Assembly (NCBI RefSeq): GCF_030013205.1
Contig: NZ_CP122649.1
DNA length: 64,000 nucleotides
Origin: Escherichia coli
GTDB taxonomy: Bacteria > Pseudomonadota > Gammaproteobacteria > Enterobacterales > Enterobacteriaceae
Strand: one strand, 5' to 3'
The notes below the pieces were generated by a model, which had not been told where the DNA came from, did no database searches, and worked only from the letters and a program-made list of their open reading frames with translations. Position numbers and translations under genes: made by a program. Below, piece by piece: positions 47,930 to 58,669 of the stretch (positions within the stretch are counted from its first letter, which is position 1; each line of letters begins with the position of its first letter).

Positions 47930-48742
47930 ATGAGCATGAATTCGCAGCCGGAACTGAAGTTGAGTACCCGTACCGAACAACTCGCCAGTAGTCGTGATGC
48001 CGCTATGCAAAAATTTCTGGACGGCATGACGCTGATTGCCGAAGCCTCAGCAATTTGCGGGTTTTCACTGTTTAACAGCAAAATTATGGCCCCTAATGCT
48101 TTTGGCCTTCCTGCGTCCCTGGCCGCAAGCATCGAGGAAGGGCGACAGCAAATAGACCGTAAGACATGGAACAATCTTTTTGAAGAAACGGGTATTGACC
48201 GATTCTGGAATCACAACCAGCGGGCGGAGTTCCGTGAGTCTCTCCGGAACGCTCCGCCAATTGCGTCGTTAACCGTAATCCGCAGTACATTGCGCCAGGC
48301 AGTTGCCATGCGCAGCATTACGCTTGCTGAAGGGTTTGTTGATCTGCTATGCCAGCTTGATCGCCGGTATAAAACTAATGCCTAGCAATTTGTGATGCCA
48401 AAAAAACTGGTACTACGCGGCATTTTTCCCGACTCGAACATGATGAGATATAATGGCTTTTCTCAGGATAATCTCTTCTATTTAAACGACTTTGAGAATG
48501 TCGTTTGCATCTGCTCCAATGCAGCAACACCGCCTGTCGGCAGTGGAATGAACATGTACGATCGGCTTGCTGTCTTACGGAAAACCGATTTCACGGGTGA
48601 CATTACCGACCCGAAGGGCTGGAAGTTCCGATTGTTCGGAAATGGTAACGTCCATATCTCAGTTGAGTGTGAAAGCCTGCATAACGCACTGAATGACCTG
48701 ATTAGCATTTATTTTGCCAACCAGATCCCGGCCAAAGGATAA
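47930..48742 (+). pseudogene. single reading frame interrupted by an in-frame TAG (DUF4942-like by recall)
   Basis: Tracked ORFs 47876..48385 and 48392..48742 are in the same frame and separated only by TAG 48383-48385 (..RRYKTNA * QFVMPKKLVLRG..). The C-terminal block GWKFRLFGNGNVHISVE recalls DUF4942-type proteins. Confidence 0.55.
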
Positions 48743-48744
48743 GA

Positions 48745-49965
48745 ATGATGACTGACAATGTAAATTTGATGAACGGGGATGAACAAACTGCGTCCAGTTT
48801 AAGTGAAGAGACTTCAAAAACGCCCCCTCTAAGCCCCGAGTTACTGAAGAATTCCCCTTACTCGTCAATAGCTAAGGTTAAATATTTCACCGAGATTGAA
48901 CAAATCTGCCTCGATAAGAGCATCAGCACCGAAAACCTCGACCAGTTTTTCAAAGCCCACTGGCTGCGGGATAAAATGGGGGGGTCTTTTGCCCGGGCTC
49001 AGGAGATGCTGGCGGCCTACAAGCAATACGTGGACGAGGTGCCCGAGGAAGCACGCGCGATTGAAATCCCTGACCAGATTAAAGATGCATTCAGTGATTT
49101 TACTGCGTTTATCACCTGGTACTTCCGCTTAAGCTATACGGCTATCCAGAGTGATAGCGTGAAAATTGCGAAGGCAGAAATTACTCAGTTACGGCAGCGG
49201 AATGCTGAAATTCTGGAAGAACTGTCACAGTCGAAAGAACAGGCTACAGTCCTGAATAACGAAAAAGTTAACCTGATTAACCTGCTGGAGCAGCAGCGTG
49301 AACTCTCCAGTAAATTAGAAGATTCACTTCAGGAAGCAGAAGAAACTCTGGCAGGAACTCAAAGTGAATTACAGCATGCCCAAAACGAGATCCAGCTTTT
49401 ACAGCAGACAGTAGGGACACTGAACCAGCAACTGAGTGAGCGCAAACAGGAACTGGCCTCGCAGCAGGAGTATCAGAAGCAGCTGAATGATGAGAATAAA
49501 GCGCAGCAGGTAGAGCTGACAGCCCTCAAAAGCCAGAATGATCACTTACAACGGACCGTGTCTGATTTAAAAGTCAGTGTCAGTCAGCTTGAACAGGACC
49601 TTTCCTCAGTACAGACCCATTCCTCTGAATTGAGCTCATCTTTAGCCGAAAAGGACACGACCCTGACGCTCGTGCGGTCGGAGCTCTCAACAGCTAAAGG
49701 GGAGAATGACCAACTACGAGCTGAAGCACAACGCTTAGCTGATGAGAGCCTGGTTGCCAAAAAAGTGCAAACAGATCAGACAGAAGAGCTTCAACAGCTC
49801 AGGAATCAGATGATTTCCATGGAAGCGACACTCAATGCGGAAAAGACCATTGCCGAGTCTTTACGAGGAACAATCAAGCAGCTTACCGAAGCTATGACCG
49901 GCGCAGTTGCCATCAAACCTAAATCCTCTGGGGCATCAAAACCGCGAAACAAAAAGACGACATAA
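48745..49965 (+). CDS. long coiled-coil protein (406 aa)
   Basis: SD aagga. Residues ~135-390 are a heptad-like Q/E/L/K-rich sequence (..LRQRNAEILEELSQSKEQATVLNNEKVNLINLLEQQRELSSKLEDSLQEAEE..). The C-terminus is basic. Confidence 0.7.
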   Translation: MMTDNVNLMNGDEQTASSLSEETSKTPPLSPELLKNSPYSSIAKVKYFTEIEQICLDKSISTENLDQFFKAHWLRDKMGGSFARAQEMLAAYKQYVDEVPEEARAIEIPDQIKDAFSDFTAFITWYFRLSYTAIQSDSVKIAKAEITQLRQRNAEILEELSQSKEQATVLNNEKVNLINLLEQQRELSSKLEDSLQEAEETLAGTQSELQHAQNEIQLLQQTVGTLNQQLSERKQELASQQEYQKQLNDENKAQQVELTALKSQNDHLQRTVSDLKVSVSQLEQDLSSVQTHSSELSSSLAEKDTTLTLVRSELSTAKGENDQLRAEAQRLADESLVAKKVQTDQTEELQQLRNQMISMEATLNAEKTIAESLRGTIKQLTEAMTGAVAIKPKSSGASKPRNKKTT

Positions 49966-50260: not shown

Positions 50261-51556
50261 TTATCGTCTAGCTTCCGGGAAATGAGGGAGTTCCTGGTAT
50301 TCAGTCTTCTCCGTAGCATCCCAGTGCCACCATCCATAGGCCCCATATTCCTGGTTGTAATACGCCTTCTTAAGTTCCTTTCGCGCAAGATAGGCAGGTG
50401 TCGACATCCCGAAAACTTCCATCGGGAACGGCTTATCACTTCGTGTATCCAGTAAATAAAAATCTGGGAAAACATCGCTCGCACTGGCGTCATACCGCAT
50501 AGGCTTAACATAGTGCCGGTGTTCGGCATCAAGTTTACGGGACACTATCGCTTCGTAGGAGGAGTCCAGAGGTATCCAGTTATCACTCACCAGCATAAGC
50601 ACTATCTGATGAGCTCGTGCAGAGATACCTCTACTGGTCACCGATACGGGAGATGTAAGAGCAAAAACAACAACTTTGCCCCCATTTTTCCAGGCGGCAT
50701 ATTCCAGAGGGAATCGCCGCTTCACGCTATCCCAGTGCCCGTCTGAGTTAAAGAAGGTAAGGGGCATACCGCCGAAGTTACGCATAGGTAGAAACTTCAG
50801 CGGCTTCTCATGCTTTTCTGCGTCATAGCGCGGCAGTACTGATAGCAGCAGCAGTCGTTTGTCGCTCAGTTCCGCCGACGACAGCAGTTGAACCTGCTCA
50901 CTGGCCACTTTGCTTTTAGAGTCCGCCACCCCGATAAAAAGATGGTCGCCAATACATGCTCTACCCGATCTAATCTGCTTTGCGGCTTCCAACATCCGGT
51001 ATCGAACCAGCGAATCATTTCGCTTCCCGGCCATATTCGGATACCAGACATTAAGACCGGCTTCAGTCCACAACAAACTCAGAAGTCCGGAGAGGGTCAT
51101 TGAAGCCTGGCCACCTTCAGGTCGCTGGATTTGGGGCAGGGAAGGAACCTCAGACTTTTCCGGCGGATCTTTCTCCGTCATGCCTATTCCAAGGCGGATT
51201 GACATGGTCCCCTCATTGTTGATGCGTACAACATTGCTGGCATAACCCTTTAACCCTGTATGCCTGGCATCAAGGTCGAAAAACACACACGATGGATCAT
51301 GCTCAGTGCCTGTATTTGCAGCCTTAATCAGGATGAACGTATCACTGTTTGGTAGTGAGCGGACGTAGAGACGCTTTGCGCCTTTTCCCCGACATCCGCA
51401 GCTGATCACAGATTTCTGCCCGGACGTGTGGTGTGCTTTCTTCAGGGCCGACTGCCATCCCTTTACATACTCATCCTGTGTCTGAAATTCAGCCGAGTAT
51501 CGTTTCGTGTTTGGTTCGTCATCGTAAGCAATAAAAACTGCAAACTTCTGGCCCAT
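50261..51556 (-). CDS. Cys-cluster / putative PD-(D/E)xK-like protein (431 aa; DUF1173-like by recall)
   Basis: SD aggagg. The N-terminal ISCGCRGKGAKRLYVR...TGTEHDPSC is a CxC...HxxxC cluster. The C-terminal KPMRYD...VFPDFYLLD...PMEVFGM resembles a restriction-endonuclease-like core. Confidence 0.7.
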   Translation of the reverse strand: MGQKFAVFIAYDDEPNTKRYSAEFQTQDEYVKGWQSALKKAHHTSGQKSVISCGCRGKGAKRLYVRSLPNSDTFILIKAANTGTEHDPSCVFFDLDARHTGLKGYASNVVRINNEGTMSIRLGIGMTEKDPPEKSEVPSLPQIQRPEGGQASMTLSGLLSLLWTEAGLNVWYPNMAGKRNDSLVRYRMLEAAKQIRSGRACIGDHLFIGVADSKSKVASEQVQLLSSAELSDKRLLLLSVLPRYDAEKHEKPLKFLPMRNFGGMPLTFFNSDGHWDSVKRRFPLEYAAWKNGGKVVVFALTSPVSVTSRGISARAHQIVLMLVSDNWIPLDSSYEAIVSRKLDAEHRHYVKPMRYDASASDVFPDFYLLDTRSDKPFPMEVFGMSTPAYLARKELKKAYYNQEYGAYGWWHWDATEKTEYQELPHFPEARR

Positions 51557-51580: not shown

Positions 51581-51751
51581 CTAATAGCCTAGCCATATCA
51601 ATACTTCTTGCGCGTTGTACTCTTCCCTCTCACCCAACTCGGAAAAAAATACGTCTATGTCGCTGGCTACGACGCCATGTTTTGCAAGCTCTTGCAGAGC
51701 TCTCTGTTTTGAAATGGTGAGGTCTTCTGCTGAATCAAAATACGTCATCAT
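51581..51751 (-). CDS. small acidic protein (56 aa), below the ORF-track cutoff
   Basis: Hand translation gives MMTYFDSAEDLTISKQRALQELAKHGVVASDIDVFFSELGEREEYNAQEVLIWLGY. Strong SD aggagg. It ends 24 nt before the 431-aa gene start. Confidence 0.6.
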   Translation of the reverse strand: MMTYFDSAEDLTISKQRALQELAKHGVVASDIDVFFSELGEREEYNAQEVLIWLGY

Positions 51752-51879: not shown

Positions 51880-53307
51880 CTATGATGCCGCTTCAAACTC
51901 TCCCTTGAGACGAGCCGCAACGGCGATCTCAATACGGCTTCGAAGCAAACTGGCCACGGCCGCAAATACGTCGACGATGACCGAATTGCCGAACTGGCGA
52001 TAGGCCTGGGTATCAGAGACTGGAATGCGAAAAGTAACTTTTCCCGGTTGCTCGAATCCCATAAGGCGGGCACATTCTCGCGGGGTTAAACGGCGCGGGC
52101 GCCTTGCCATATTTACAGGATCATTAAAGTCCTTTTCGCCTATGCTGTGATCCCATCCACGGTCTAGCAAAATTTCAGAGCCATCACGATAGTACCGTGC
52201 GCTGAGTGTTCTGCAAACAACTGATTTATCAAGTGGATTTACCAGTCCGAAGCCAAATCCATTACCTTTTGCCTGGTGCTTTTTAGCGTAGTTATAAAGG
52301 TACTCCCAGAGCTTTGGAGAAAGGATGTAACGGCTATCGACCTCAGCGTCCAGCAGCTCCCCAAGGGTTGGCCGTCGTGAAGGATAAAGAGCCGATACAC
52401 CACTTAACGAAAAGCCATCATGGAGCTTCAGATCGCGCCTGAATCCAACCAACACGATACGTTCCCGGTGCTGAGGCCTGAAGTTCTTACCGTCAATTAT
52501 TTTGGGGTCCTTTGATCCGTGAGCATCGCAGTCGGCAACATCGTAGCCAAGTTCATCAAGCGCTTTCATGATGATGCGGAACGTATTTCCCTTATCGTGG
52601 CTCTTCAGATTTTTTACGTTCTCAAGAACGAAAATGGCAGGCTGTTTGGCTCGGATGATCCGGGCGACATCAAAAAAAAGGGTCCCCTGGGTGTCGCATT
52701 CAAAGCCGTGTTTTCGGCCCAAAGAGTTCTTTTTGCTGACACCGGCAATACTGAACGGTTGGCATGGGAAACCTGCGAGCAAAACATCATGGTCTGGGAT
52801 GGATGCATCGATAGAAGCATAGGCCTGGTCATCCGAAACATCGGGAAGATTACTGAGTGTAATGTCCCGGATATCTGAGTTGAAATAGTGCTCAGTCTCG
52901 TCACAGTACCAGTTTGCACTGTATGTCCGGCGGGAGAACTGATTCCATTCGCTTGTAAACACGCATTTCCCGCCAATGGCGTCAAAACCACTCCGGAGGC
53001 CACCGATCCCAGCAAACAAGTCAATAAAACGGAAAAATTTCTGGTCATAGTCTGCTGGGCGTGAGGGGAGCAACGATCGAAGATAATGATATTCTTCCTG
53101 GGTTATTCGACATTCATTAACTGAACCTTTGATCTGGCGAATAAGTGATGCCCTCGACCAGTCGCTGCCGGTTGCAGCATTAAGTTGCGCAGCCAAATCT
53201 TTTACGTCATAGATACTTGCAACCTGCACCAGTAATTTATGGATAGAGGAAGGCGTCTCATCATTAAGCAATGCTGTTATTGCAGGCTCAGTTCTATCGT
53301 TGTACAT
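51880..53307 (-). CDS. dcm: DNA (cytosine-5)-methyltransferase, Dcm-like
   Basis: 475 aa with C5-MTase motifs [10 protein letters not shown] (I), GFPCQPFS (IV), FVLENVKNL (VI) and QFGNSV (X). Similar along its length, including the variable region, to the recalled E. coli Dcm. Confidence 0.9.
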
Positions 53308-53530
53308 CCTTACTCCATGAAATGTGATTAATTTAGGACCTCAGACTACCACGCGGTGAAAATTCAATTTTTTGTTAAAGGCCTTTATTTTCATCTCCTG
53401 AATTAAAATTTTTAATCCACTCAAATTGCCTCCGTTAACGGAAAATCGCCGAGTTTCTAATTGGTACAATAAGCGCGTCAAATCACACGACTTATTTGTT
53501 ACTACGAACCATCTAATTCAGGGAGAACGT

Positions 53531-54046
53531 ATGACTCTGTTGAAAAAGTTACTTTTGCCGACATTAATCGTCCTTTTCCCGGCGGCAACTCTGGCTGCCC
53601 AATCGTCATTTGAAGCGAAAGTGGTAAAAATTATCGACGGGGACACAATCACCGCGCTCGATGGTCAGAATACAAGCATCAAAATCCGCTTGTACGGTAT
53701 TGATGCCCCCGAAAGTAAGCAGGCCTTTGGACAAAAGTCTAAACAAGCGTTGAGCGCCGCGATTGCTGCACAGAATATTACGGTAATAGACCACGGACCT
53801 GATATTTACGGCAGGATGCTGGGAACCATTTGGCTTGATGGTTATGACATAAACGCCTCAATGGTAGACAGCGGCTATGCATGGGTATACCGGTTTGACG
53901 GTAATGCCATCGTCCCAAACTATCTGAAATTCGAAGCTTCAGCTCAGAAAGCAGTTAAAGGCCTCTGGGTAGATCCTAATCCCGTTGCCCCCTGGGAGTG
54001 GCGCCAGCAAAACCAGAAACCTCAAAAGACGAAAAGCAGGGGGTGA
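53531..54046 (+). CDS. nuc: secreted staphylococcal-nuclease (SNase)-like thermonuclease
   Basis: ATG 53531 with SD ggaga; signal peptide MTLLKKLLLPTLIVLFPAATLAA. SNase motifs KVVKIIDGDTI, IRLYGIDAPE and GRMLG. Confidence 0.85.
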   Translation: MTLLKKLLLPTLIVLFPAATLAAQSSFEAKVVKIIDGDTITALDGQNTSIKIRLYGIDAPESKQAFGQKSKQALSAAIAAQNITVIDHGPDIYGRMLGTIWLDGYDINASMVDSGYAWVYRFDGNAIVPNYLKFEASAQKAVKGLWVDPNPVAPWEWRQQNQKPQKTKSRG

Positions 54047-54051
54047 CCGCG

Positions 54052-54975
54052 ATGACAAGACAGCATCCTTTATTGAAAATTGCGCTTAATAGCGATGGAC
54101 ATCTTTCGTGGCCAATTTTACCAGGAGAGACTCACCGCTGCCCAACGTGTCTGCGACACGTTACTACGGGCCCGGATGGGGATTTGGTGCATTCGATGGA
54201 GGAGGGCGGCAACGTCTGCATACCTTCAGCTTCTGTTGTTATTTCAAAGGCAATTATTGAAATGCTCAGCGCAGGCGAACGTCTCTATGTTAATCCAATC
54301 AAGAATGGGAATAAAACCCTAGCACCGTCATTTATCTTTCTGCATACAGACCAGCAACTCCGCCCATTTATCAATTCGGATTATCAGCCAGCCGGTGCCA
54401 GCTGGAGAAGTGATAAAGGTTTCAGGCTTGGCCTTTTCTTTATGAATGAGCGAGCCTCTAAAATTAATAAAGACCAGTTTGATTTTATTGCAGTAATAGA
54501 CCCATTGACCTTTCAGTCAGAATTTGATGCGACATGGTCCCGTGGTGAATTTGATGACCCTCTAAAGGCATTACGGTATTCAATTGTTTCTGAAAACTTG
54601 TCTTCCGTCTGGGTGAAATGGCCCGTAAAAAACCTGCAACCGAGGAAAGAAACGGTGATGGCCGATTACTGGTATGACTATTATTCACCTCATTCCCCAG
54701 CTCAGCAGGCTGCTTGCACAGCAACGGTGACTGGAATAGATGGGAATGTATCCGGCGAAACTATTTACATGCTCCAGATCGCTTTAGAGCGGTCGACAGT
54801 TGAGTACCAGCTTGTAAAATCGCTAGGGGTCATATTGCTACTGGATAATACAGGAAATTTGGTATCGGAGGCGCAGCCGCACTTTGATATAATCATCAAG
54901 GCATGCATATCGGGCGTCAGAGACTTTGTTCTTCAGAATCCTCGGACGCTGGGTTTTGAAAACAAGGTTGCATAG
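54052..54975 (+). CDS. hypothetical Zn-ribbon protein (307 aa)
   Basis: ATG 54052, 5 nt after the nuc stop. The N-terminal HRCPTCLRHVTTGPDGDLVHSMEEGGNVC loosely parallels the N-terminus of the 19804 protein. Confidence 0.6.
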   Translation: MTRQHPLLKIALNSDGHLSWPILPGETHRCPTCLRHVTTGPDGDLVHSMEEGGNVCIPSASVVISKAIIEMLSAGERLYVNPIKNGNKTLAPSFIFLHTDQQLRPFINSDYQPAGASWRSDKGFRLGLFFMNERASKINKDQFDFIAVIDPLTFQSEFDATWSRGEFDDPLKALRYSIVSENLSSVWVKWPVKNLQPRKETVMADYWYDYYSPHSPAQQAACTATVTGIDGNVSGETIYMLQIALERSTVEYQLVKSLGVILLLDNTGNLVSEAQPHFDIIIKACISGVRDFVLQNPRTLGFENKVA

Positions 54976-55030
54976 TTATAAAAAATCTTGCCGTTCTCAA
55001 GGCATCATTAAAAATTAAAATGAGGTATAC

Positions 55031-55810
55031 ATGGTACAAGTACTCAACACCACTGGTTTGAATTATCAACTTGAAAAAACAATCACTGAAGCTGAGGAAA
55101 GGATAATTCTCATTAGCCCATACCTTAAGCTTAGTAATCGCATTAAAGAGCTGATCGAAGATAAAAATAGACTAAAAGTTGACATCAGAATAGTTTATGG
55201 GAAATCAGAACTAAACTCTAAAGAATATGAATGGTTAACAAACCTGCCTTTTGTACGCCTTAGTTTTTGTAAAAACCTCCATGCAAAATTATATGCCAAT
55301 GAAAATCAATGTATTGTGTGCAGTCTAAACCTTTATGATTTTAGTCAGATTAATAACCATGAAATTGGAGTGTTAATTATTAAGGAGCAGGAGAAGGATG
55401 CATACACTTCATCGTTAAATGAAGCTCAGCGACTGATCAGAATCAGCACAGATAACATTCAGCCACTAACAACAGATAAAGAAACAACAGGTTCAAAAGA
55501 AAGTGAAAAAACTAATAAAGAGTCATCCGACTTCACTTCAGCCTTTCATGAAGAACCATTAACAAATCAAAATGGATTGATTACTGATTTAAATACAAAT
55601 TCAAAACTCACTTCGACAAATCTAGCAAAAAATCATAAAACTGATTTGTTATCTCTATATAAAAAATTAATCGAAGCTGGATATCTCATGGACGTAGAAG
55701 GAAAATACATATTGACTGATGCTGGCATAGCGGCAGGGGCAGAAGCCAAGCCAAATCGATATAAAAAAGGAGAAAACTATTTTCTGTGGCCTGATAACCT
55801 AGCATTATGA
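55031..55810 (+). CDS. PLD-superfamily (HKD-motif) nuclease-like protein with C-terminal extension
   Basis: Single HKD-like motif NLHAKLYANENQCIVCSLNL in a ~140-aa N-terminal domain, then a low-complexity linker and a C-terminal ~70-aa domain (LLSLYKKLIEAGYLMDVEGKYILTDAGI). No signal peptide. Confidence 0.7.
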   Translation: MVQVLNTTGLNYQLEKTITEAEERIILISPYLKLSNRIKELIEDKNRLKVDIRIVYGKSELNSKEYEWLTNLPFVRLSFCKNLHAKLYANENQCIVCSLNLYDFSQINNHEIGVLIIKEQEKDAYTSSLNEAQRLIRISTDNIQPLTTDKETTGSKESEKTNKESSDFTSAFHEEPLTNQNGLITDLNTNSKLTSTNLAKNHKTDLLSLYKKLIEAGYLMDVEGKYILTDAGIAAGAEAKPNRYKKGENYFLWPDNLAL

Positions 55811-55863
55811 TTTTACATCACGTACTGTGTCCCTGCGTAGCCATGAGGGACATAGAAGGGTCA

Positions 55864-56094
55864 ATGAAAAATAGCTTGTTTAGTACTGATTCGAATACTG
55901 GGGTCACCTTTACCATCTCGCCTCACGGCCAGGGATGTAAACTGTCTGTAGAGCCTGAATATCGTCGCAAAGGAACACAAAATTACGATGGCTGGTTCCC
56001 TCGATATTACACTAAGCCACAATACGCTAAAGCAGCATTGACACGGTTTCTTGGGGAACCTGTTAATTGGTTGGATTGTAATGACCATAATTAG
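55864..56094 (+). CDS. hypothetical protein (76 aa)
   Basis: Internal ATG of tracked ORF 55807..56094. Confidence 0.45.
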   Translation: MKNSLFSTDSNTGVTFTISPHGQGCKLSVEPEYRRKGTQNYDGWFPRYYTKPQYAKAALTRFLGEPVNWLDCNDHN

Positions 56095-56157
56095 GGCTTT
56101 CAGACAGTTAGCCAACAAAAAAATCTTTAACTCACCAACAATATTGAGAATTACCAA

Positions 56158-56457
56158 ATGGAAAATCTGGATGTTGTATCAGCGGTAGATTTTTACTTAG
56201 AAAAAGCATTTTATTTATTTGGATTCATAATGTTAGGTATGGCATGGCTTACTTTTCGTGCTGGTTCAACTTATCAGCATTTTAAAAATGCTGATAAGTT
56301 AGTCAGTGAAGGTAGAGGCTCAGTTTCAAGCGGTAAAGAGCCTGAAATGATCCGGCGGCTTAAGTTCCAAACATTGATCTGGTACATTGCTAATTGTGTG
56401 GTGTTAGCATTATCCACTATTGCTTTTGGGTATTTATTTTATCTTCTACACAGTTAA
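56158..56457 (+). CDS. membrane protein (99 aa, 2 TM)
   Basis: ORF track; hydrophobic FYLFGFIMLGMAWLTF and LIWYIANCVVLALSTIAFGYLFYLL. Confidence 0.5.
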   Translation: MENLDVVSAVDFYLEKAFYLFGFIMLGMAWLTFRAGSTYQHFKNADKLVSEGRGSVSSGKEPEMIRRLKFQTLIWYIANCVVLALSTIAFGYLFYLLHS

Positions 56458-56582: not shown

Positions 56583-56690
56583 ATGCCTATGGTATTAGAT
56601 ATCATGACTGTTTTGGCCTTTGCGTTTTTGGTTCTGTATAAAATAGCTTCACGAATCATTTCTATGTCTGGTGGTGCGATAAGGTTCTGA
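56583..56690 (+). CDS. possible small hydrophobic peptide (35 aa, or 33 aa from ATG 56589), below the ORF-track cutoff
   Basis: SD ggagg. Hand translation gives MPMVLDIMTVLAFAFLVLYKIASRIISMSGGAIRF. It is preceded by a 14-codon ORF (56521-56565, SD ggaga) and followed directly by a terminator. Confidence 0.35.
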   Translation: MPMVLDIMTVLAFAFLVLYKIASRIISMSGGAIRF

Positions 56691-56708
56691 TTTTCAGAAC
56701 CTTTTTTT
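56683..56708 (+). terminator. Rho-independent terminator
   Basis: ggttctg / cagaacc stem followed by ttttttt. Confidence 0.7.
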
Positions 56709-57340
56709 AAAGTTTACTAGAGTAGATTTCATTTTGAATAAACGTAAGATACTCCTCACTTTGACTGCCTTTCCTAAATTTTTTCTGTCCTTCAAAATCT
56801 ATATCAGGTATGAAATGTATTAACTGGCTATCTTGGTAAAGTGAAAGAACGGAATTTTGATTGAGCACCTTAGAGTCCATTAATTGATAAACTGATTCAA
56901 TACATGCACCTATAAGAACATCACACAATTGCACGCTTGGGCTTTCTTTCGAATCAATTTGATAGACTTTTTTAAGGTTTAGAGGGAATGAGATAGTTGC
57001 TATCTCGGAATGTTTAAACTCTCCTTCCTTATCACAATTGATCAAAAAGTTAAGGCGTTCATTGTAAGTTAGCAGATTTTTAGAACGATCATGCTCAATT
57101 GCATACTCTCCAGAGGACATCATTTCCGTGCGAGAAATTAATGCATTTAAAATAGTAAATGAGGCATCAGTGCTAATTCCATCAGTCATGATGGCATCAA
57201 TGCAATCTGGGTGGTTAAATGCCAAAGGACCAAAAAACTCTTTTAACCTTTGCCAATCAAGCCTCCTTATTTTGCTTATTAGCAAACTCACTGAATCTAA
57301 TGTTTTTTCTTTCATAGCATTTTGAAACTGAAGCAGAACA
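56707..57340 (-). pseudogene. gene 5'-truncated by IS10 insertion (DUF3800-like C-terminal region by recall)
   Basis: The frame stays open up to the IS10 outside end at 57341, and the upstream codons of the tracked ORF are IS10 sequence. The motif SVQLCDVLIGACIESV is reminiscent of the DUF3800 C-terminal region. Confidence 0.5.
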
Positions 57341-58669
57341 CTGATGAATCCCCTAATGATTTTTATCAAAATCATTAAGTTAAGGTAGATACACATCTTG
57401 TCATATGATCAAATGGTTTCGCCAAAAATCAATAATCAGACAACAAAATGTGCGAACTCGATATTTTACACGACTCTCTTTACCAATTCTGCCCCGAATT
57501 ACACTTAAAACGACTCAACAGCTTAACGTTGGCTTGCCACGCCTTACTTGACTGTAAAACTCTCACTCTTACCGAACTTGGCCGTAACCTGCCAACCAAA
57601 GCGAGAACAAAACATAACATCAAACGAATCGACCGATTGTTAGGTAATCGTCACCTCCACAAAGAGCGACTCGCTGTATACCGTTGGCATGCTAGCTTTA
57701 TCTGTTCGGGCAATACGATGCCCATTGTACTTGTTGACTGGTCTGATATCCGTGAGCAAAAACGGCTTATGGTATTGCGAGCTTCAGTCGCACTACACGG
57801 TCGTTCTGTTACTCTTTATGAGAAAGCGTTCCCGCTTTCAGAGCAATGTTCAAAGAAAGCTCATGACCAATTTCTAGCCGACCTTGCGAGCATTCTACCG
57901 AGTAACACCACACCGCTCATTGTCAGTGATGCTGGCTTTAAAGTGCCATGGTATAAATCCGTTGAGAAGCTGGGTTGGTACTGGTTAAGTCGAGTAAGAG
58001 GAAAAGTACAATATGCAGACCTAGGAGCGGAAAACTGGAAACCTATCAGCAACTTACATGATATGTCATCTAGTCACTCAAAGACTTTAGGCTATAAGAG
58101 GCTGACTAAAAGCAATCCAATCTCATGCCAAATTCTATTGTATAAATCTCGCTCTAAAGGCCGAAAAAATCAGCGCTCGACACGGACTCATTGTCACCAC
58201 CCGTCACCTAAAATCTACTCAGCGTCGGCAAAGGAGCCATGGATTCTAGCAACTAACTTACCTGTTGAAATTCGAACACCCAAACAACTTGTTAATATCT
58301 ATTCGAAGCGAATGCAGATTGAAGAAACCTTCCGAGACTTGAAAAGTCCTGCCTACGGACTAGGCCTACGCCATAGCCGAACGAGCAGCTCAGAGCGTTT
58401 TGATATCATGCTGCTAATCGCCCTGATGCTTCAACTAACATGTTGGCTTGCGGGCGTTCATGCTCAGAAACAAGGTTGGGACAAGCACTTCCAGGCTAAC
58501 ACAGTCAGAAATCGAAACGTACTCTCAACAGTTCGCTTAGGCATGGAAGTTTTGCGGCATTCTGGCTACACAATAACAAGGGAAGACTCACTCGTGGCTG
58601 CAACCCTGCTTACTCAAAATCTATTCACACATGGTTACGTTTTGGGGAAATTATGAGGGGATCTCTCAG
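57341..58669 (+). mobile_element. IS10 (1,329 bp), outside end at 57341 and inside end at 58669 (Tn10 arm)
   Basis: Ends ctgatgaatcccctaatgatttt ... ggggaaattatgaggggatctctcag; exact length. The IS10 RNA-IN/RNA-OUT antisense region is expected near 57387-57455 from the literature (not independently verified). Confidence 0.95.
57448..58656 (+). CDS. IS10 transposase
   Basis: 402 aa, MCELDILHDSLYQFCPELHLKRLNSLTLACHALLDCKTLTL... Confidence 0.95.
   Translation: MCELDILHDSLYQFCPELHLKRLNSLTLACHALLDCKTLTLTELGRNLPTKARTKHNIKRIDRLLGNRHLHKERLAVYRWHASFICSGNTMPIVLVDWSDIREQKRLMVLRASVALHGRSVTLYEKAFPLSEQCSKKAHDQFLADLASILPSNTTPLIVSDAGFKVPWYKSVEKLGWYWLSRVRGKVQYADLGAENWKPISNLHDMSSSHSKTLGYKRLTKSNPISCQILLYKSRSKGRKNQRSTRTHCHHPSPKIYSASAKEPWILATNLPVEIRTPKQLVNIYSKRMQIEETFRDLKSPAYGLGLRHSRTSSSERFDIMLLIALMLQLTCWLAGVHAQKQGWDKHFQANTVRNRNVLSTVRLGMEVLRHSGYTITREDSLVAATLLTQNLFTHGYVLGKL

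What the first reader, a model, noticed from the sequence alone, without database searches (positions are those of the whole stretch)
53531..56457. Operon combining SNase, a Zn-ribbon protein, a PLD-fold nuclease-like protein and two small/membrane proteins, divergent from the methyltransferase operon
Five plus-strand genes start ~220 bp from the divergently transcribed dcm-like gene. They encode a signal-peptide SNase, a 307-aa protein with an N-terminal CPxC...C ribbon, and a cytoplasmic single-HKD PLD-domain protein. The PLD protein has a low-complexity linker and a small C-terminal domain, an architecture reminiscent of PLD-type endonucleases fused to a DNA-binding domain such as BfiI. A 76-aa protein and a 2-TM protein complete the operon. 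With the adjacent putative PD-(D/E)xK protein, three different nuclease folds sit within 6 kb of visibly AT-rich DNA next to a methyltransferase. That is typical of defence or anti-defence islands, but it is not a combination I recognise.
Basis: partly seen in the sequence, partly recalled or inferred. Interest (0 to 1): 0.6.

Follow-up and report, generated by a model that had tools for sequence, protein, structure and literature searches.

The report
IncHI1 backbone nuclease operon with PLD cargo
The five genes are real, but they are a patchwork on a long-known IncHI1 resistance plasmid: a conserved exported nuclease with its plasmid-specific partner and two small proteins, plus a separately travelling cytoplasmic PLD-type nuclease fused to a DNA-binding domain, none with a tested function.

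Summary
All five plus-strand ORFs exist at the stated coordinates. The DNA is 100% identical to known IncHI1 plasmids such as pHCM1, so the sequence is not new.

The cluster is not one multi-nuclease system. SNase plus the 307-aa protein (p307) is a tightly coupled pair, conserved in IncHI1, IncHI2 and related plasmids and always divergent from dcm–DUF1173. The 76-aa and 99-aa genes also belong to that backbone.

The PLD gene has 34% GC against 46–48% for its neighbours. It is absent from IncHI2 and from close IncHI1-like relatives. It belongs to a family of more than 3,600 stand-alone proteins: a core chromosomal gene in Psychrobacter and Acinetobacter, and cargo on Vibrio and Hafnia filamentous phages and on IncHI1B Klebsiella plasmids.

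The PLD protein has a Nuc/NucT-like single-HKD fold with invariant H, K, S and N, a disordered linker and a winged-helix-like C-terminal domain. Published proteomics detected PLD, SNase, probably p307, and Dcm.

It is not an R-M partner of Dcm. It cannot depend on Dam or Dcm methylation, because its hosts carry both marks. My best reading is a wH-guided DNA endonuclease, a variant of the described PLD-wH type IV-like enzymes. In relatives, the slot downstream of SNase–p307 carries Thoeris and CBASS-like genes. Function is untested; interest is moderate.

The parts
53308..53530 (.). 223-bp divergent intergenic region between dcm and the SNase gene, with the Shine-Dalgarno AGGGAG before the SNase ATG
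   Evidence: Sequence read directly. No strong sigma-70 consensus match was found here.
53531..54046 (+). Sec-exported SNase (thermonuclease-family) nuclease, 171 aa
   Evidence: PF00565 at 2e-22. Hydrophobic N-terminus 1-25 ending TLA-AQ. DGDT, R53, D58, E61 and R95 are invariant in 7 orthologues (A3). Listed as an IncHI1 core-genome 'nuclease' and detected by mass spectrometry (PMC5390554 Table S3).
54052..54975 (+). p307: soluble 307-aa protein restricted to IncHI-like plasmids, the obligate neighbour of the SNase; CPTC...H...C motif at residues 30-56
54925..55850 (.). About 0.9-kb low-GC segment carrying the PLD gene, missing from the otherwise collinear PLD-less relative L103
   Evidence: Pairwise alignment A5. 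GC is 33.8% against 46-48% in the flanks. A promoter-like TTCTCA-16-TAAAAT lies at 54994-55021.
55031..55450 (+). PLD-wH protein, N-terminal single-HKD PLD nuclease domain (aa 1-140); motif H84-x-K86-x3-N90-E91-x6-S98-x-N100
55451..55597 (+). Disordered T/S/E/K/N-rich linker of the PLD-wH protein (aa 141-189)
   Evidence: pLDDT below 50. Composition. Length varies among homologues (A2).
55598..55810 (+). C-terminal winged-helix-like domain of the PLD-wH protein (aa 190-259) plus the stop codon
   Evidence: pLDDT 87-97 with beta-alpha-alpha-beta-beta topology. All 18 homologues tested match the N-terminus of PADLOC candidate PDC-S69 (best 4.5e-17), with weak WH_III-A hits. Weak MarR-type wHTH matches in the PDB.
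55864..56094 (+). p76: small soluble protein; an alternative 95-aa form starts at 55807 in an ATGA overlap with the PLD stop codon
   Evidence: GAAGGG Shine-Dalgarno before 55864. tblastn finds it in 1,460 plasmid records. It is 52% identical to the C-terminal part of an IncHI2 135-aa protein that has two N-terminal hydrophobic segments. It is not annotated in the database records.
56158..56457 (+). p99: small membrane protein with two hydrophobic segments
   Evidence: Hydropathy. Homologues in 1,301 plasmid records including IncHI2, at about 35% identity.
56681..56703 (.). 10-bp-stem hairpin followed by a T-run; a likely bidirectional terminator shared with the convergent DUF3800 gene
   Evidence: Terminator scan and sequence.
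51880..53307 (-). Context: Dcm-type C5 cytosine methyltransferase, divergent from the operon
   Evidence: PF00145 at 6e-74 plus DNA_meth_N. NCBIfam PRK10458 at 849 bits against a cutoff of 710. Conserved with SNase-p307 in IncHI1 and IncHI2 whether or not PLD is present.
50261..51556 (-).
   Evidence: PF06666 at 1e-42. Literature describes it as PD-(D/E)XK-related without an active-site signature, with an N-terminal Zn motif (PMC3045609).
56707..57396 (-). Context: low-GC DUF3800 gene, convergent with the operon and abutting IS10/Tn10
   Evidence: PF12686 at 1.5e-4. PHROG 12991 at 1.5e-45. Weak PADLOC PDC-M04A hit. GC 33.9%.

Best explanation
The locus is a composite transcription unit of the IncHI1 plasmid backbone, not a single multi-nuclease system. 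It has two modules.

Module 1 is conserved across IncHI1, IncHI2 and relatives. It comprises a Sec-exported, catalytically intact SNase-type nuclease, a translationally coupled cytoplasmic partner (p307) found only on IncHI-like plasmids, and two small proteins (p76, and membrane-bound p99). I infer that the SNase degrades nucleic acid in the periplasm or outside the cell. I also infer, weakly, that p307 controls or accompanies it, for example as a cytoplasmic inhibitor, chaperone or regulator.

Module 2 is a low-GC cargo gene. It is present in R27/pHCM1-type IncHI1 and in IncHI1B plasmids and absent from IncHI2. It encodes a cytoplasmic PLD-wH protein. A Nuc/NucT-like single-HKD domain must dimerise to form one active site. 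A flexible linker tethers it to a winged-helix-like domain. I infer that the wH domain binds DNA and positions the metal-independent PLD dimer to cut DNA carrying some feature absent from host and plasmid. That would make it work like the described PLD-wH and other PLD-fusion type IV-like endonucleases, serving competition between mobile elements.

The target cannot be Dam (GATC) or Dcm (CCWGG) methylation. The protein is expressed in Dam+ Dcm+ enterobacteria, next to a plasmid dcm gene.

Shown: gene structure, folds, residue conservation, distribution, independence of the modules, and protein expression. Inferred: all activities, the target, the role of p307 and co-transcription.
For: Identity and distribution:
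- The region is 100% identical to pHCM1 and about 180 other IncHI1 plasmids. The window itself is NZ_CP122645.1.
- SNase-p307 adjacency is seen in every context examined with p307 identity of 45% or more (L002-L008, L016, L102-L107) and in a 21%-identity relative (L108).
- p76 and p99 homologues sit in the same order in IncHI2.
- Relatives lacking PLD are collinear with the window apart from a segment of about 0.9 kb (A5).
- GC drops from 46-48% to 33.8% in the PLD gene, and a similar drop is seen in IncHI1B.
- The PLD family has 3,637 hits, all full-length and about 235 aa.
- 77 of 80 genomic PLD loci lack SNase, p307 and dcm.
- In about 35 Psychrobacter genomes the gene sits at a fixed position, glnS-PLD-peroxiredoxin-GST.
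- It is also found in 7 Vibrio inoviruses and one Hafnia filamentous prophage.
- PLD homologues occur in 625 plasmid records, 386 of them Klebsiella. In the IncHI1B-type loci examined (L017, L022, L023, L112) the gene follows the SNase gene directly.

Fold and catalysis:
- H84, K86, N90, E91, S98 and N100 are invariant.
- The wH assignment rests.
- SNase catalytic and Ca-ligand positions are invariant.

Expression:
- In Kubasova 2016 Table S3, pB71 gene 23 has GC 0.338462, exactly that of this PLD gene. It was detected with 7, 2 and 2 peptides and is not flagged as core.
- In the same table 'nuclease', the adjacent hypothetical protein and the Dcm methylase are core genes and were detected.

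Precedent:
- PLD-wH fusion endonucleases (PMC11037411).
- PLD plus a variable C-terminal sensor domain as single-gene defence (PMC12191111).
Against: - No activity has been measured for any of the five proteins.
- In Psychrobacter and Acinetobacter the PLD-wH gene is vertically inherited at a housekeeping locus. That is unusual for a restriction or defence gene and fits a general DNA-metabolism role at least as well.
- The wH assignment rests on weak profile matches and a predicted structure. No similarity to the DpnI-type 6mA-reading wH was detected.
- On plasmids the PLD gene was found directly after the SNase or SNase-p307 genes in both diverged backbones examined, IncHI1 and IncHI1B. A functional link between SNase and PLD is therefore not excluded.
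- p307 has no assignable fold, and two of its three most remote relatives are not next to an SNase.
- Co-transcription is inferred only from spacing and the absence of internal terminators.
Confidence: 0.55

Rival explanations
1. The five genes, with the divergent dcm and DUF1173, form one integrated defence or anti-defence system that uses three nuclease folds.
For: - Tight spacing and a single terminator.
- On plasmids PLD follows SNase in both IncHI1 and IncHI1B.
- Relatives carry Thoeris or CBASS-like genes in the same slot.
- All the products examined are expressed.
Against: - PLD is missing from IncHI2 and from close IncHI1-like plasmids that keep everything else.
- IncHI1B has SNase-PLD without p307 or dcm.
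- 77 of 80 chromosomal PLD loci have none of the partners.
- There are no PADLOC system-level hits beyond isolated weak DrmC and MkoB domain matches.
- DUF1173 lacks a catalytic signature.
Confidence: 0.08
2. PLD-wH and the neighbouring Dcm form a BfiI-like R-M pair. The PLD enzyme would cut unmethylated CCWGG-containing DNA, and Dcm would protect self DNA.
For: - A PLD nuclease with a separate DNA-binding domain lies within 2 kb of a C5 methyltransferase.
Against: - dcm is conserved without PLD (IncHI2, L102-L107), and PLD occurs without any adjacent methyltransferase in IncHI1B, inoviruses and chromosomes.
- The C-terminal domain is alpha/beta and wH-like, not a B3-like barrel.
- The two genes are separated by two backbone genes and sit on opposite strands.
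Confidence: 0.03
3. PLD-wH is not a conflict nuclease. It would be a general DNA-metabolism or nucleoid-associated protein: a repair-type phosphodiesterase that removes adducts or processes DNA ends, or a TrmBL2-like DNA-binding protein. Plasmids and filamentous phages would have borrowed it for their own ssDNA or rolling-circle DNA transactions.
For: - Core position in Psychrobacter, next to glnS and peroxiredoxin, and conserved synteny in Acinetobacter.
- The top structural matches include TrmB and TrmBL2, which are wHTH plus PLD-like DNA-binding proteins.
- Its carriers, conjugative plasmids and inoviruses, both pass through ssDNA intermediates.
- The protein is tolerated at detectable levels.
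- Sources name it 'DNA repair protein', which is a label and not evidence.
Against: - The catalytic H, K, S and N are invariant, unlike TrmBL2-type inactive domains.
- Distribution on enterobacterial mobile elements is patchy, with low GC.
- The C-terminal domain is shared with the PADLOC defence candidate PDC-S69.
Confidence: 0.25
4. The PLD protein is a lipid-modifying phospholipase D or cardiolipin-synthase-type enzyme.
For: Database names such as 'phospholipase D family' and 'cardiolipin synthase-like', and the Pfam PLDc_2 match.
Against: - It has a single HKD copy of about 140 aa with no transmembrane segment or signal peptide.
- The best structural matches among active enzymes are the nucleases NucT, Nuc, SauUSI and Zucchini.
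- It is fused to a winged-helix-like domain.
Confidence: 0.03

Closest known systems
Nuc of plasmid pKM101 (PDB 1bys) and NucT of Helicobacter pylori (PDB 6ehi): minimal single-HKD PLD-family nucleases
   Different: Nuc and NucT are exported (my own knowledge), with no extra domain. The window protein has no signal peptide and carries a linker plus a winged-helix-like domain. Sequence similarity is undetectable by phmmer or profile search of the PDB.
PLD-wH fusion endonucleases (Aba4572I, CbaI), predicted 6mA-dependent type IV restriction enzymes (Helbrecht et al. 2024, PMC11037411)
   Same: [quoted passage not shown] Both are single-gene and usually lack a cognate methyltransferase.
   Different: Those enzymes are toxic to Dam+ E. 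coli and avoid Dam+ genomes. This protein lives and is expressed in Dam+ Dcm+ Enterobacteriaceae, and its relatives occur in Vibrio. Its wH domain shows no detectable similarity to DpnI-type wH. That paper found only 27 PLD-wH proteins, whereas this family has more than 3,600 members. Direct sequence comparison was not possible because no sequences were held.
BfiI (PDB 2c1l) and NgoAVII: type IIS PLD restriction enzymes
   Different: The C-terminal domain of BfiI is a B3-like pseudobarrel (as stated in PMC12191111), and BfiI is encoded with methyltransferases. Here the domain is alpha/beta and wH-like, and the gene does not co-occur with a methyltransferase.
END nucleases (END-PaCF1): a single-gene anti-phage PLD nuclease with an inactivated EndoIII-like sensor domain (PMC12191111)
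   Same: The modular logic is the same: a PLD catalytic N-terminal domain with a variable C-terminal sensor, in a single gene with no methylase. That paper lists wHTH among the alternative C-terminal domains.
   Different: The sensor domain differs. No phage-restriction data exist for this family, and it is a core gene in Moraxellaceae.
Plasmid-borne SNase-family ('thermonuclease') nucleases
   Same: An exported SNase homologue with intact catalytic residues on a conjugative plasmid.
   Different: Here it is invariably followed by p307, a protein found only on IncHI-like plasmids. I know of no described partner for plasmid SNases (my own knowledge, not tested).

Membership tests
SNase / thermonuclease (PF00565) | Profile match above the curated cutoff | tested here: met
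   79.9 bits against a cutoff of 21, residues 51-147 covering the whole model.
SNase / thermonuclease (PF00565) | Ca-ligand and catalytic residues conserved (S. aureus D21, R35, D40, E43, R87; numbering from my own knowledge) | tested here: met
   D36-G-D38-T, R53, D58, E61 and R95 are invariant in 7 orthologues at 46-97% identity (A3).
SNase / thermonuclease (PF00565) | Export signal | tested here: met
   Hydrophobic segment 1-25 ending TLA-AQ. No dedicated signal-peptide predictor was available.
Nuc-like single-HKD PLD nucleases | HxK(x)4D(x)6GSxN motif | tested here: met
   H84-A-K86-x4-E91-x6-(C/S/T)-S98-x-N100. H, K, E, S and N are invariant in 30 homologues, with D replaced by E and G not conserved.
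Nuc-like single-HKD PLD nucleases | Nuc fold | tested here: met
Nuc-like single-HKD PLD nucleases | Periplasmic or exported location | tested here: not met
   No hydrophobic N-terminus; the sequence starts MVQVLNTTGLNYQLEK.
Nuc-like single-HKD PLD nucleases | Homodimer forming one active site; metal-independent nuclease activity | not testable with these tools
PLD-wH type IV (6mA-dependent) endonucleases | PLD N-terminal domain plus winged-helix C-terminal domain | tested here: inconclusive
   The PLD domain is met. The wH assignment rests on predicted beta-alpha-alpha-beta-beta topology, weak MarR and WH_III-A matches, and a strong match to the N-terminus of PDC-S69.
PLD-wH type IV (6mA-dependent) endonucleases | wH homologous to the DpnI/HhiV4I 6mA reader | tested here: not met
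   A profile of the C-terminal domain against all PDB sequences at E up to 10 returned no DpnI chain.
PLD-wH type IV (6mA-dependent) endonucleases | Incompatible with Dam+ hosts | tested here: not met
   The gene is carried by E. coli and Salmonella plasmids. The protein was detected by mass spectrometry in S. Typhimurium. That these hosts are Dam+ is established knowledge.
BfiI-type type IIS R-M | Linked cognate methyltransferase | tested here: not met
   dcm and PLD occur independently of each other.
BfiI-type type IIS R-M | B3-like beta-barrel DNA-recognition domain | tested here: not met
   The C-terminal domain is predicted to be alpha/beta with three helices.
DISARM (DrmC) / Mokosh (MkoB) | PLD protein scoring above family level, with the system partners (DrmA/B, MkoA) nearby | tested here: not met
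   NCBIfam DrmC scores 18.8 bits against a cutoff of 133. The PADLOC DrmC and MkoB hits range from 6e-6 down to 9e-3. No helicase or partner genes lie in the neighbourhood.
PD-(D/E)xK / DUF1173-like (considered for p307) | Detectable homology and an E...D...(D/E)xK signature | tested here: not met
   hhalign of p307 against DUF1173 gives probability 0.8% and E 0.072. The family-wide invariants are L72, P92, W118, S120, G123, G127, W187, E236, L263 and C285, with no conserved acidic pair.
Defence-island / cargo hotspot | Known defence systems at the equivalent position in related elements | tested here: met
   ThsB_TIR plus ThsA_Macro lie downstream of SNase-p312 in L102. SMODS plus S_4TM are there in L003 and L005. 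A Shedu family gene lies further downstream in pHCM1.

The most novel reading that the evidence does not exclude
Two things are uncharacterised and not excluded by my evidence.

(a) The PLD-wH family has more than 3,600 members. It is a core gene in Psychrobacter and Acinetobacter and cargo on IncHI1 and IncHI1B plasmids and on Vibrio and Hafnia filamentous phages. It could be a new class of single-protein, metal-independent DNA endonuclease. Its winged-helix sensor would read a DNA feature other than Dam or Dcm methylation, such as a hypermodified base, ssDNA or rolling-circle intermediates, or a relaxase/Rep-DNA adduct. It would act in competition between ssDNA-transmitted elements.

(b) SNase-p307(-p76-p99) could be an IncHI-specific envelope nuclease system, in which p307 is a new kind of cytoplasmic partner or inhibitor of an exported SNase.
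Probability: 0.25. Interest if true: 0.6.

Novelty: new variant of a known kind. Interest (0 to 1): 0.4.

Why it matters
IncHI1, IncHI2 and IncHI1B plasmids are major carriers of multidrug resistance in Salmonella Typhi, E. coli and Klebsiella. This block sits in hundreds to more than a thousand sequenced plasmids. Its products are expressed, yet none has an assigned role.

If the PLD-wH protein is a DNA-sensing nuclease, it would add a very large, easily testable single-gene family to the modular PLD-fusion restriction enzymes. Its specificity would have to differ from the published Dam-dependent PLD-wH enzymes. It could also affect which phages or plasmids coexist with these resistance plasmids.

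The strictly conserved SNase-p307 pair is a small, tractable question about why conjugative plasmids carry exported nucleases.

The finding also corrects the idea of a 'three-nuclease system'. It is a backbone operon plus cargo.

Tried and rejected
- **p307 remote homologues.** A profile search of 1.84e9 representatives found only 24 hits, none with a Pfam family except weak DUF7828/DUF7830 matches in one remote member.
- **p307 against DUF1173.** hhalign gave probability 0.8%. A shared 'RSDKxF...FxM' stretch is suggestive, but I rejected it as evidence.
- **PLD protein against PDB sequences.** phmmer of the PLD protein returned only spurious desmoglein hits and the family profile returned nothing. 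The fold had to come from structure prediction.
- **P0020 (PLD plus H-NS C-terminus).** I first took it for an evolutionary domain swap. I rejected that because in the IncHI1B backbone hns lies just downstream of PLD, so a deletion explains the chimera.
- **Leading-region anti-defence idea.** PsiA and MobI/TraI_2 lie near the IncHI1B copy. In this IncHI1 plasmid, however, the locus is about 60 kb from the end of the Tra2 region, and I did not locate oriT. I did not pursue it.
- **Literature.** Searches for IncHI1 plus phospholipase D, for inovirus plus PLD, and of the Vipa phage paper found nothing on function.
- **Comparison with Aba4572I and CbaI.** The supplement of PMC11037411 holds no sequences.
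- **Foldseek against afdb50.** The library was unavailable.

Full report
**What is there**

- SNase, 53531-54046 (171 aa)
- p307, 54052-54975 (307 aa)
- PLD protein, 55031-55810 (259 aa)
- a 95-aa ORF at 55807-56094, whose internal ATG at 55864 gives the 76-aa protein
- p99, 56158-56457 (99 aa)

The dcm-type gene (51880-53307, minus strand) starts 223 bp from the SNase ATG.

Pfam assigns SNase (PF00565, 2e-22), PLDc_2 (PF13091, 2e-7), Dcm (PF00145 plus DNA_meth_N), DUF1173 (50261-51556, minus strand) and DUF3800 (56707-57396, minus strand). It assigns nothing to p307, p76 or p99.

Hydropathy shows a signal-peptide-like N-terminus on the SNase (residues 1-25, TLA-AQ) and membrane segments only in p99.

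Gaps between the genes are 5 bp, 55 bp, an ATGA overlap (or 53 bp to the 76-aa start) and 63 bp. The only convincing terminator is a 10-bp-stem hairpin with a T-run at 56681-56703, shared with the convergent DUF3800 gene. A promoter-like TTCTCA-16-TAAAAT lies just upstream of the PLD gene. One transcription unit with a possible internal promoter is therefore plausible but unproven.

**Provenance**

The 3.4-kb region is 100% identical to Salmonella Typhi pHCM1 and to about 180 other plasmids. It matches 293 plasmid records in total, nearly all conjugative MOBH/MPF_F plasmids of Escherichia, Salmonella, Citrobacter and Klebsiella.

The window itself is the last 64 kb of E. coli ETEC4079 plasmid NZ_CP122645.1, an IncHI1 plasmid. 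The locus lies in the backbone between the plasmid hns gene and Tn10. Public annotation calls the genes 'thermonuclease family protein', 'hypothetical protein', 'phospholipase D family protein' and 'hypothetical protein'. The sequence is not new, and my literature searches found no functional study.

**The cluster is composite**

p307 is a tiny family: 23 clusters among 5.8 billion proteins, and 24 hits when a family profile was run against 1.84 billion representatives.

In every context I could read, the p307 gene follows an SNase gene with a 5-bp gap or a 4-bp overlap. The pair is divergent from dcm, a small ORF and DUF1173. The contexts were IncHI2 and other IncHI-like plasmids, with p307 at 45-82% identity (L002-L008, L016, L102-L107).

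A relative at only 21% identity (P0159) also sits 17 bp after an SNase gene. Two other remote relatives do not, although they lie among IncHI-like hallmarks such as ParAB, RSP-like Big_3 proteins and H-NS.

p76 and p99 have homologues in 1,460 and 1,301 plasmid records respectively, mostly IncHI2, in the same order. In IncHI2 the p76 homologue is the C-terminal part of a 135-aa protein with two N-terminal hydrophobic segments.

What follows SNase-p307 varies among relatives:
- p76-p99-p97 alone (L103)
- Thoeris ThsB/ThsA further downstream (L102)
- an RSP-like Big_3 protein and a SMODS plus S_4TM pair (L003)
- DUF6904 (L006)

In the window, the PLD gene occupies that position.

Aligning the window with the PLD-less relative L103 shows about 0.9 kb extra between the 3' end of p307 and the p76 ribosome-binding site (A5). 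GC content falls from 48.4% (SNase) and 45.7% (p307) to 33.8% (PLD), then returns to 42.9% in p76.

Kubasova et al. 2016 list 'nuclease', the adjacent hypothetical protein and 'DNA cytosine methylase' in the IncHI1 core genome. They do not list the PLD gene there (PMC5390554 Table S3).

**The PLD protein**

It has 3,637 homologues at E up to 1e-3, and the closest 120 listed are almost all full-length proteins of about 230-270 aa. They come mainly from Gammaproteobacteria and are labelled 'phospholipase D family protein' or 'DNA repair protein'.

In a 30-sequence alignment H84, K86, N90, E91, S98 and N100 are invariant. This is the HxK(x)4D(x)6GSxN signature with D replaced by E.

The AF2 model has mean pLDDT 77.5, with both domains well above the linker. 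It consists of:
- a PLD domain (residues 1-140)
- a disordered T/S/E/K/N-rich linker (141-189)
- a compact beta-alpha-alpha-beta-beta C-terminal domain followed by a further helix and strands (190-259)

The C-terminal domain gives weak MarR-type wHTH and PADLOC WH_III-A matches. In all 18 homologues tested it gives a strong match (best 4.5e-17) to the N-terminus of the PADLOC defence candidate PDC-S69. I call it winged-helix-like.

**Where the PLD gene lives**

Of 80 genomic loci, only three enterobacterial ones have an SNase neighbour, and only the mis-binned identical contig L021 has p307 or dcm.

In about 35 Psychrobacter genomes the gene sits at one fixed position between glnS and peroxiredoxin/GST genes. 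In Acinetobacter the left flank (S30AE-Tsx-GNAT-TPR) is conserved. In Moraxellaceae it is therefore a vertically inherited core gene.

In Vibrio it is carried by seven roughly 10-kb inoviruses. In Hafnia it lies at the end of a Zot/secretin filamentous prophage.

Among plasmids it occurs in 625 records: 195 at 99% identity or more (R27/pHCM1-type IncHI1) and 424 below 60%. Of the 625, 386 are Klebsiella. In the IncHI1B-type loci I examined (L017, L022, L023, L112) the order is DUF1173(-) | SNase - PLD, with H-NS downstream. There is no p307 and no dcm.

The plasmid copies are each other's closest relatives (56-64% identity, against 45-50% to the rest). In both backbones examined, the PLD gene follows the SNase gene or the SNase-p307 pair. 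This means either one old acquisition with later losses or repeated use of the same slot, and I cannot tell which. It leaves a functional SNase-PLD link formally open.

The PLD::H-NS protein P0020 is a deletion chimera in the IncHI1B backbone, not a meaningful domain swap.

**Expression**

In Kubasova et al. Table S3, pB71 genes 20-23 have GC values 0.394693, 0.450786, 0.33913 and 0.338462. These are exactly the values I compute for gltS, IS10 tnp, DUF3800 and the PLD gene. Gene 23 is therefore this PLD protein. It was detected with 7, 2 and 2 peptides in three growth conditions in S. Typhimurium.

The SNase, its neighbouring hypothetical protein and Dcm were detected in all four plasmids studied. 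That the neighbour is p307 is inferred from gene order.

**Mechanistic reading**

The SNase keeps all Ca-ligand and catalytic positions (A3) and has an export signal. I infer a periplasmic or extracellular nuclease.

p307 is soluble, has no assignable fold and has an N-terminal CxxC...H...C motif that is dispensable in the family. Its strict coupling to the SNase suggests a partner role, such as inhibitor, chaperone or regulator. This is inference only.

The PLD-wH protein should dimerise to build one HKD active site, as single-HKD PLD nucleases do (established for Nuc and BfiI). It would use its tethered wH domains to bind DNA.

There are two published precedents:
- 'PLD-wH' fusion endonucleases, proposed as 6mA-dependent type IV enzymes (PMC11037411).
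- The general scheme of a PLD N-terminal domain with a variable C-terminal sensor in single-gene anti-phage nucleases (END nucleases, PMC12191111).

This family cannot read Dam or Dcm methylation. It is expressed in Dam+ Dcm+ hosts beside a plasmid dcm gene, and its wH shows no detectable similarity to DpnI-type wH.

The core-gene status in Moraxellaceae keeps a housekeeping DNA-metabolism role alive as the main rival. An R-M pairing with Dcm, a lipid PLD and a single integrated 'three-nuclease system' are each contradicted by the distribution data.

**Verdict**

The locus is ordinary IncHI1 backbone plus a cargo gene at a slot that holds defence genes in relatives.

Two elements are genuinely uncharacterised: the very large PLD-wH family, and the IncHI-restricted SNase-p307 pair. 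I rate the finding a new variant of a known kind (PLD-fusion nucleases), with moderate interest (0.4).

Noticed in passing
window 47936-48742 (+): The DUF4942 homologue upstream of the coiled-coil gene has an in-frame stop after codon 149, which splits it into 169-aa and 116-aa ORFs. The same split is seen in L105-L107. The gene is intact in IncHI2 (L016) and in L102-L104.
   Followed up: partly
window 56707-57396 (-): This is a low-GC (33.9%) DUF3800 gene, convergent with the operon and abutting IS10/Tn10. It has a strong PHROG 12991 match (1.5e-45) and a weak PADLOC PDC-M04A match. It may be a second cargo gene in the same slot.
   Followed up: partly
L102 8244-9691; L003 13365-15285; L001 25782-26582: Relatives carry known defence genes downstream of SNase-p307. 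L102 has Thoeris ThsB_TIR plus ThsA_Macro, and L003/L005 have SMODS plus S_4TM. pHCM1 has a Shedu family gene further along. The region behaves as a cargo hotspot.
   Followed up: partly
L019/L020 7001-7687: A K. pneumoniae protein (P0020) fuses the PLD N-terminal domain to an H-NS C-terminal domain. In the parental IncHI1B backbone hns lies just downstream of PLD, so this looks like a deletion chimera. The SNase gene next to it is truncated by a Tn3-family insertion.
   Followed up: partly
L014 9113-9823 (Vibrio phage vB_Vipa26) and L009 4207-4935 (Hafnia paralvei): Full-length PLD-wH homologues are carried as accessory genes by seven Vibrio inoviruses and by a Hafnia Zot/secretin filamentous prophage. 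In the Vibrio phages the next gene encodes an Excalibur/DUF4189 protein.
   Followed up: partly
L025 and about 35 other Psychrobacter loci (L029-L093): The PLD-wH homologue sits at a fixed chromosomal position between glnS and peroxiredoxin/GST genes across the genus. In this genus it is a core gene, not island cargo.
   Followed up: yes
L021 (JAEWTL010000050.1, labelled 'Bacillota bacterium' MAG): A 5.6-kb contig encodes a PLD protein 100% identical to the window's and also carries the SNase, p307, p76, dcm and DUF3800 genes. It is almost certainly a mis-binned enterobacterial plasmid fragment.
   Followed up: no
window 51581-51751 (-): A 56-aa ORF lies between dcm and DUF1173, where E. coli dcm would have vsr. 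It is conserved in IncHI1 and IncHI2 and matches PHROG 25588 (3.8e-29). Its function is unknown.
   Followed up: no
window 48745-49965 (+): A 406-aa protein rich in coiled coil gives only SMC/Rad50/JetC coiled-coil-type matches. It is conserved next to DUF4942 in IncHI1 and IncHI2.
   Followed up: no
window 54052-54975 versus 50261-51556: p307 and DUF1173 both start with a Cys/His motif and share a short 'RSDKxF...FxM' stretch after an 'E..L...R.YV.P' helix-strand element. Profile-profile comparison is not significant (probability 0.8%, E 0.072).
   Followed up: yes
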